A stretch of 64,000 nucleotides of DNA from Escherichia coli (GTDB lineage Bacteria > Pseudomonadota > Gammaproteobacteria > Enterobacterales > Enterobacteriaceae): assembly GCF_050920415.1 (NCBI RefSeq), contig NZ_CP169309.1; one strand, written 5' to 3'. Under the pieces are notes generated by a model. The model had not been told where the DNA came from. It was given only the letters and a program-made list of their open reading frames with translations, and searched no databases. This document shows, one piece after another, positions 15,872 through 18,774 of the stretch (position 1 is its first letter; each line of letters opens with the position of its first letter). The translations under genes were made by a program, and so were the position numbers.

Positions 15872-18774
<2,903 letters not shown>

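What the first reader, a model, noticed from the sequence alone, without database searches (positions are those of the whole stretch)
18735..18745. rrlE has single-base deletions at a CCAGG site and in a T-run
rrlE reads ctgactgcagggcatcc where rrlB (60176-60193) and the canonical 23S 5' helix read ctgactgcCagggcatcc; the missing C is inside a Dcm CCAGG motif. rrlE also reads catggttagcc at about 17629-17639 where rrlB (59071-59082) has catggtTtagcc, a homopolymer contraction. Both are typical of long-read consensus error rather than biology.
Basis: partly seen in the sequence, partly recalled or inferred. Interest (0 to 1): 0.35.

Follow-up and report, generated by a model that had tools for sequence, protein, structure and literature searches.

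The report
Assembly errors in rRNA operon repeats
The two missing bases in this E. coli 23S rRNA gene are really in the sequence, but they are almost certainly sequencing and assembly errors of the nanopore type that survive only in the repeated rRNA operons, so the finding is ordinary.

Summary
Both deletions exist as described: CCAGG→CAGG at 18739-18741 and TTT→TT at 17634-17635, in the 23S gene of rrnE. The window's two rrn operons carry 7 single-base deletions and no insertions in about 10 kb.

The 53 kb of single-copy DNA has no frameshift in about 55 genes. The window is a near-copy of NZ_CP169399.1 (E. coli MFDS1022581). That record is canonical at all three rrnE deletion sites, but it carries the same CCAGG deletion in rrlB and rrlA and the same GATC deletion in rrsA.

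Among about 37,900 rrn copies in 5,425 complete genomes, each deletion is found only in that sister record or in one or two unrelated assemblies. Three of the six deletions inside the rRNA genes lie in Dam or Dcm motifs, which make up 2.3% of the bases (P=2e-4).

Verdict: these are repeat-confined residual long-read consensus errors, not biology. Interest is low.

The parts
15872..18774 (-). 23S rRNA gene of rrnE (rrlE). It contains the two reported deletions.
   Evidence: Rfam LSU_rRNA_bacteria, 2850.9 bits. Synteny yjaA-rrnE-purH.
18739..18741 (-). Deletion of one C from CCAGG on the plus strand, equal to 23S G35 or G36 in CCUGG. The site is a Dcm motif.
   Evidence: The Rfam alignment shows a gap at a conserved paired GG, model position 36. 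The only exact match in 5,425 genomes is in the sister record's rrlB; the multiple alignment shows rrlA carries it too.
17634..17635 (-). TTT contracted to TT on the plus strand, equal to 23S A1142-1144 reduced to AA. This is a homopolymer contraction.
   Evidence: The same contraction is in the record's rrlA and rrlD and in two unrelated assemblies.
19216..20756 (-). 16S rRNA gene of rrnE (rrsE).
   Evidence: Rfam SSU_rRNA_bacteria, 1562.2 bits.
20049..20050 (-). Deletion of the G of GATC on the plus strand, equal to 16S C708. The site is a Dam motif.
   Evidence: The gap falls in a paired helix column. The only other occurrence is in the sister record's rrsA.
20083..20083 (-). C>G substitution on the plus strand, equal to 16S G674C, in GAATTC directly adjoining a CCAGG Dcm motif. 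It breaks a base pair.
   Evidence: The pair is marked non-canonical. The record's rrsB and rrsD have deletions at 16S 675 and 679 in the same motif cluster.
17182..17231 (-). Two substitutions, at 17182 and 17231 (23S 1596G and 1547T), that match the allele of the record's rrlC. This is allele shuffling between rrn copies.
57317..60218 (-). 23S rRNA gene of rrnB (rrlB).
   Evidence: Rfam, 2844.4 bits..
57445..57446 (-). Deletion of C from TCGGGG on the plus strand, equal to 23S G2775. The sister record shares it at the same locus.
58619..58626 (-). Deletion of A (GTACGA to GTCGA, 23S T1602) at 58619|58620, and a private G>A substitution at 58626 (23S 1595). Both lie next to the heterogeneous site 1596.
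59532..59533 (-). Deletion of the G of GATC on the plus strand, equal to 23S C687. The site is a Dam motif.
   Evidence: The record's rrlB, rrlA and rrlC have a substitution at the same base. The only exact match elsewhere is one unrelated assembly.
60618..60619 (-). Deletion of A in the 16S to tRNA-Glu spacer of rrnB (CATCAGAC to CATCGAC).

Best explanation
The deletions are consensus errors of a long-read assembly, with a nanopore-type error profile, and they survive only in the roughly 5-kb rrn repeats. Shown here: the window's rrn operons carry only deletions, enriched at Dam GATC sites, Dcm CCWGG sites and short homopolymers. Single-copy DNA is clean. A second version of the same genome has the same lesions in different rrn copies and is canonical in rrlE. 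Inferred: the reads were native, methylated DNA read on a nanopore platform, so Dam and Dcm motifs and homopolymers were miscalled. A later short-read polishing step, or a hybrid assembler, repaired unique sequence but could not repair the seven near-identical rrn copies because short reads map ambiguously there. The same ambiguity shuffled genuine allele differences between copies.
For: (1) The window holds 7 deletions and no insertions in about 10.2 kb of rrn. Against its own public record it holds no indels in about 53.8 kb of single-copy DNA, and only one intergenic A-run difference against N96. PGAP flags no pseudogene among about 55 CDS of the record here. (2) Context: 3 of the 6 deletions inside rRNA genes are in Dam or Dcm motifs (2.3% of bases; P=2.3e-4). 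Over window plus record, 6 of 14 distinct deletion sites are in those motifs (P=4e-7) and 5 are in homopolymers of 3 or more bases. (3) Non-reproducibility: NZ_CP169399.1 is canonical at all three rrnE deletion sites. It has the CCUGG deletion in rrlB and rrlA, the 16S GATC deletion in rrsA, and the AAA contraction in rrlA and rrlD. 23S C687 in GATC is hit in 4 of the 7 copies examined. (4) Rarity: each lesion is absent from about 37,900 rrn copies in 5,425 complete genomes, apart from the sister record or one or two unrelated assemblies. (5) The lesions fall in conserved, mostly base-paired rRNA positions. (6) Literature: nanopore consensus errors concentrate in CCAGG/CCTGG and in homopolymers (PMC6591954). 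GATC and CCWGG methylation causes nanopore read errors, and modification sites included almost all error-prone assembly sites (PMC11610603). [quoted passage not shown]
Against: The sequencing platform and pipeline of this assembly are not visible to these tools, so 'nanopore plus short-read polishing' is inferred from the error signature alone. Three of the seven deletions (57445, 58619, 60618) are in neither a Dam or Dcm motif nor a homopolymer. The deletion at 57445 is shared by the window and the record at the same locus, so it could be a genuine rrlB variant or an error inherited from a common draft. The relationship between window and record is unresolved: they may be the same isolate re-assembled or sibling isolates. 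tufB, a 1.2-kb duplicate in the window, is error-free, although at the observed error density that is not informative.
Confidence: 0.9

Rival explanations
1. The deletions are genuine mutations. Under this view rrlE, and also rrsE and rrlB, are real defective or heterogeneous rRNA genes in this strain, perhaps decaying copies or specialised ribosomes.
For: The bases are truly absent from the deposited-type sequence. Real intragenomic rrn heterogeneity does exist in this genome, for example the 23S 1171-1178 haplotype and the 16S V1 and V6 alleles. One deletion (57445) is reproduced at the same locus in both versions.
Against: The sister record of the same genome is canonical in rrlE and rrsE and carries the identical deletions in other copies. 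The lesions sit in conserved, paired positions rather than variable regions and have no compensating changes. They are absent from orthologous operons of N96 and K-12 and from essentially all of 5,425 genomes. All are deletions and they are enriched at methylation motifs. In the record, four of the five operons examined would be damaged, which is hard to reconcile with a viable fast-growing E. coli (inference from established knowledge).
Confidence: 0.03
2. This is a uniformly error-prone, unpolished long-read assembly. On this literal reading of the first reader's idea, the rrn deletions are a random sample of errors spread over the whole sequence.
For: The error types, methylation motif and homopolymer deletions, are those of raw long-read consensus.
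Against: At the rrn density of 7 indels per 10.2 kb, about 37 indels would be expected in the 53.8 kb of single-copy DNA. Observed: none against the record and one intergenic A-run difference against N96. No CDS is frameshifted. The chance that all 7 fall in the rrn fraction of the window is about 3e-6 (my arithmetic, (10.2/64)^7).
Confidence: 0.04
3. This is Dcm-related or Dam-related mutagenesis in vivo, with the methylated sites acting as real mutational hot spots.
For: Several lesions lie exactly in CCWGG and GATC motifs.
Against: The established Dcm hot-spot mechanism is deamination of 5-methylcytosine. It gives C>T transitions at the inner C, not 1-bp deletions (established knowledge). 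The lesions occur only in the rrn repeats, although Dam and Dcm sites are spread across the whole window. They are not reproducible between the two versions of the genome.
Confidence: 0.01
4. The window was edited artificially relative to the public record, so the differences are neither biology nor sequencing error.
For: The window is not identical to any record in the collection. The nearest, NZ_CP169399.1, differs at about 35 positions.
Against: The differences cluster almost entirely in the rrn operons. They include coherent swaps of natural alleles (16S V1 and V6, 23S 1211-1229 haplotypes), and the record itself carries the same kind of lesions in other copies. Random editing would not produce that pattern.
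Confidence: 0.02

Closest known systems
Nanopore consensus errors at Dcm (CCWGG) motifs, Dam (GATC) motifs and homopolymers (Wick et al. 2019, PMC6591954; Genome Res 2024, PMC11610603)
   Same: The lesions are single-base errors inside CCAGG/CCTGG, GATC and runs of 3 or more identical bases. They are deletion-biased and recur at the same motif instances in independent copies.
   Different: The platform of this assembly is unknown. Three of the seven window deletions lie outside those contexts. The errors appear only in repeats rather than genome-wide.
Residual errors in genomic repeats after short-read polishing of long-read bacterial assemblies (Wick & Holt 2022, PMC8812927)
   Same: Unique sequence is clean while the multi-copy rrn operons keep errors. 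Different runs or versions leave the errors in different copies.
   Different: The polishing history is inferred, not documented. Allele shuffling between copies suggests mis-assignment of reads or graph paths as well as failure to correct.
Genuine intragenomic rRNA operon heterogeneity in E. coli
   Same: Differences between rrn copies of one genome do exist here, as coherent haplotypes in variable helices (16S V1 and V6, 23S 1171-1178 and 1211-1229).
   Different: The reported deletions are not in variable regions. They are uncompensated, are not shared with the orthologous operon of close relatives, and are not reproducible between versions of the same genome.

Membership tests
Nanopore-type methylation-motif or homopolymer consensus error | The error lies within a CCWGG or GATC motif, or changes the length of a homopolymer of 3 or more bases | tested here: met
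   The two reported deletions are in CCAGG and TTT. Overall, 4 of the 6 deletions inside the window's rRNA genes are in such contexts, and 11 of 14 distinct sites in window plus record (P=3e-6).
Nanopore-type methylation-motif or homopolymer consensus error | Deletion bias | tested here: met
   The window's rrn operons have 7 deletions and no insertions. Window plus record have 21 deletion events and no insertions inside rRNA genes, excluding one natural haplotype.
Nanopore-type methylation-motif or homopolymer consensus error | The error is not reproduced by an independent consensus of the same genome | tested here: met
   NZ_CP169399.1 is canonical at all three rrnE deletion sites and carries the same lesions in rrlB, rrlA, rrsA and rrlD. 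Exception: the deletion at 57445 is shared.
Nanopore-type methylation-motif or homopolymer consensus error | The assembly was made from nanopore reads of native, Dam+ Dcm+ DNA | not testable with these tools
No paper mentions the strain.
Repeat-confined residual error after short-read polishing | Error density is much higher in multi-copy repeats than in unique sequence of the same assembly | tested here: met
   There are 7 indels in 10.2 kb of rrn, and none (against the record) or one (against N96) in 53.8 kb of unique DNA. No pseudogene CDS is annotated.
Genuine rrn heterogeneity or functional rRNA variant | The variant is present in the orthologous operon of close relatives or recurs in the species | tested here: not met
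   The variants are absent from N96 and K-12 rrlE. Among 5,425 genomes they appear in no genome, or in one or two unrelated genomes, apart from the sister record.
Genuine rrn heterogeneity or functional rRNA variant | The variant lies in a variable region or is structurally compensated | tested here: not met
   The gaps fall at conserved columns: paired for 23S G35/36 and 16S C708, and at an unpaired-to-paired junction for the A1142-1144 run. No compensating change is present.
Dcm 5-methylcytosine deamination hot spot | C>T transition at the inner C of CCWGG | tested here: not met
   The lesion is a 1-bp deletion, not a transition.

The most novel reading that the evidence does not exclude
At least some of the deletions are real. 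The best candidate is the loss of 23S G2775 in rrlB (57445|57446), which both versions of the genome share at the same locus. On this reading the rare E. coli lineage carries a genuinely altered rRNA operon, and the other lesions are artefacts layered on top.
Probability: 0.05. Interest if true: 0.25.

Novelty: not a real feature. Interest (0 to 1): 0.05.

Why it matters
The finding matters only as quality control. rRNA genes taken from this assembly, or from its public sister record, would give slightly wrong 16S and 23S sequences, spurious 'intragenomic heterogeneity' and wrong allele-to-operon assignments. The case also shows that comparing one rrn copy with another in the same assembly is unsafe, because the 'reference' copy here is damaged too. 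No new biology follows from it.

Tried and rejected
(1) I assumed at first that the window equals NZ_CP169399.1. Direct comparison rejected this. The difference then became the key evidence. (2) I looked for any record with rrn loci identical to the window's and found none. (3) I considered an EcoRI-like GAATTC methylation motif to explain the hits at 16S 674-679. I dropped it because GAATTC there overlaps a CCAGG Dcm motif, which suffices. (4) I searched the literature for the strain name and found nothing, so the platform and pipeline remain unknown. (5) I did not locate rrnG and rrnH of the record, because five of the seven operons were enough. (6) The Rfam bit scores of the two 23S copies (2850.9 and 2844.4) do not discriminate, because both copies are damaged.

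Full report
**Observation.** The window holds two rrn operons on the minus strand. One has 5S at 15661-15776, 23S at 15872-18774, tRNA-Glu at 18972-19044 and 16S at 19216-20756. The other has 5S at 57106-57221, 23S at 57317-60218, tRNA-Glu at 60416-60488 and 16S at 60659-62200. Flanking genes identify them as rrnE (yjaA | rrnE | purH) and rrnB (murB | rrnB | murI).

In rRNA terms these are loss of G35 or G36 inside CCUGG, and loss of one A from A1142-1144.

Full alignment of the two operons with each other, and with the orthologous operons of strain N96 (the closest relative) and K-12, shows that both copies are damaged.
- rrnE also lacks the G of a GATC in its 16S (20049|20050, 16S C708).
- rrnE has a C>G change at 20083 (16S G674C).
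- rrnB has a private substitution at 58626.

In total the window has seven deletions and no insertions in about 10.2 kb of rrn. N96 and K-12 are canonical at every one of these positions.

**Where the window comes from, and the key comparison.** The window matches NZ_CP169399.1 (E. coli MFDS1022581, a food isolate from Korea) at about 100% over single-copy DNA, but it is not identical to it. In about 53.8 kb of single-copy sequence the two differ by two substitutions. One is a synonymous, window-private change in aceK at 9943. The other is at 42019 in rpoC, where the record is the outlier (T553A) and the window agrees with N96 and K-12. All other differences, about 33 positions, lie inside the two rrn operons.

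The record is canonical at all three rrnE deletion sites and at 20083. Yet the record's rrlB carries the same CCAGG>CAGG deletion. Its rrsB lacks a T in CCTTTGAG and a T in GAATTC. Its rrlB has G>A in the GATC where the window has a deletion. No record in the collection matches the window's rrn loci exactly.

**All accessible copies.** I fetched rrnA, rrnC and rrnD of the record and aligned all 16S and 23S genes. R denotes the record and W the window.
- 16S deletions: 626 (R-rrnD, CCTGG), 675 (R-rrnB), 679 (R-rrnD, CCAGG), 708 (W-rrnE and R-rrnA, GATC), 885 (R-rrnD, CCTGG), 1150 (R-rrnB and R-rrnA, AAA).
- 23S deletions: 35 (W-rrnE, R-rrnB and R-rrnA, CCTGG), 477 and 501 (R-rrnC, A4 and A5), 855 (R-rrnD, G5), 1142 (W-rrnE, R-rrnA and R-rrnD, AAA), 1602 (W-rrnB), 2775 (W-rrnB and R-rrnB).
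- 23S 687, in GATC, is deleted in W-rrnB and substituted C>T in R-rrnB, R-rrnA and R-rrnC.

There are no insertions. The record's rrnE is the only clean copy. Genuine allele differences are also shuffled. The window's rrlE carries 1547T and 1596G, which is the allele of the record's rrlC. The record's rrsB carries an alternative V6 haplotype.

**Statistics.** Dam plus Dcm motif bases make up 2.3% of 16S plus 23S, and homopolymers of 3 or more bases make up 17%. In the window, 3 of the 6 deletions inside rRNA genes are in Dam or Dcm motifs (P=2.3e-4). Over all copies, 6 of 14 distinct deletion sites are in those motifs (P=4e-7), and 11 of 14 are in a motif or a homopolymer (P=3e-6).

**Population test.** I queried 81-nt stretches centred on each lesion against 5,425 complete E. 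coli genomes, about 37,900 rrn copies. An exact match scores 100% and a canonical copy 98.8%.
- The CCUGG deletion is matched only in NZ_CP169399.1, and there in rrlB.
- The AAA contraction is matched in two unrelated assemblies.
- The 16S GATC deletion is matched only in NZ_CP169399.1, in rrsA.
- The 23S GATC deletion is matched in one unrelated assembly.
- The G2775 deletion is matched only in NZ_CP169399.1, at the same locus.

**Confinement to repeats.** PGAP flags no pseudogene among about 55 CDS of the record in this interval, nor among the genes that flank rrnA and rrnC. One partial yedZ pseudogene lies about 18 kb from rrnD. Against N96 the only single-copy 1-bp indel is an intergenic A7 versus A6 run at about 50620-50637, which the window and the record share. 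At the rrn error density, about 37 indels would be expected in the unique DNA.

**Structure.** Rfam alignments place the 23S G35/36 gap at a conserved, paired GG. They place the 16S C708 gap and the G674C change in paired helix columns, and the pair affected by the substitution is flagged non-canonical. The A1142 contraction lies at the junction before a helix strand. None of these is a variable-region change and none is compensated.

**Mechanism.**
- Shown: deletion-only lesions that are motif-linked, confined to repeats, and not reproducible between two versions of one genome.
- From the literature: nanopore consensus errors concentrate in CCAGG/CCTGG and homopolymers (PMC6591954). Dam GATC and Dcm CCWGG modification causes nanopore read errors, and potential modification sites included almost all error-prone sites in R10.4.1 assemblies (PMC11610603). 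[quoted passage not shown]
- Inferred: a nanopore long-read or hybrid assembly was polished with short reads. Unique DNA was corrected, the rrn copies were not, and alleles were partly mis-assigned among copies.
- Not verifiable here: the platform and pipeline (one search found no publication), and the relationship between the window's source and the record (the same isolate re-assembled, or sibling isolates).

**Rivals.**
- Real rRNA mutations are very unlikely, for the reasons above. In addition, in the record four of the five operons examined would be damaged at conserved positions.
- A uniformly unpolished assembly is excluded by the clean single-copy DNA.
- Dcm deamination predicts C>T transitions, not deletions.
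- Artificial editing does not fit the coherent allele swaps.
- The one lesion that could be genuine is the G2775 deletion, which both versions share.

**Verdict.** It is not a real biological feature, and interest is low.

Noticed in passing
window 30089-30244: A 156-bp near-perfect hairpin (MFE about -78 kcal/mol) is inserted between nfi and hemE. It is absent from K-12 and N96, and it occurs once in the sequences held. It looks like a small palindromic intergenic (MITE or REP-like) element.
   Followed up: partly
window 50620-50637 (rplK-nusG intergenic): An A-run is A7 in the window and in the public record, but A6 in N96 and K-12. It is the only single-copy 1-bp indel. It could be a real polymorphism or a residual homopolymer error in unique DNA.
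   Followed up: partly
window 42019 (rpoC codon 553): The window differs from NZ_CP169399.1 here. The record has a private non-synonymous change (Thr553Ala), while the window agrees with N96 and K-12. The window has its own private synonymous change in aceK at 9943.
   Followed up: yes
window 21000-45000 (purH to rpoC): This stretch is at most 96.9% identical to more than 5,400 complete E. coli genomes. Only strain N96 (Tibetan pig) is close, at 99.6%. The genome therefore belongs to a rarely sampled, divergent lineage.
   Followed up: no
window 17182, 17231; 58992-59010; 61163-61199; 62108-62122: Natural rrn allele differences (23S 1547/1596 and 1211-1229; 16S V6 and V1) are assigned to different operons in the window and in the public record. 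Operon-specific rRNA alleles from either version are therefore unreliable.
   Followed up: yes
L004 about 15830-15960 (N96 rrnE, 5S-23S spacer): N96 has about 95 extra bases in the 5S-23S spacer of rrnE relative to the window and K-12.
   Followed up: no
window 18782-18890 and 60226-60334: Rfam StyR-44 matches lie in the spacer just upstream of each 23S gene. This is the usual conserved enterobacterial spacer element and is not unusual.
   Followed up: no
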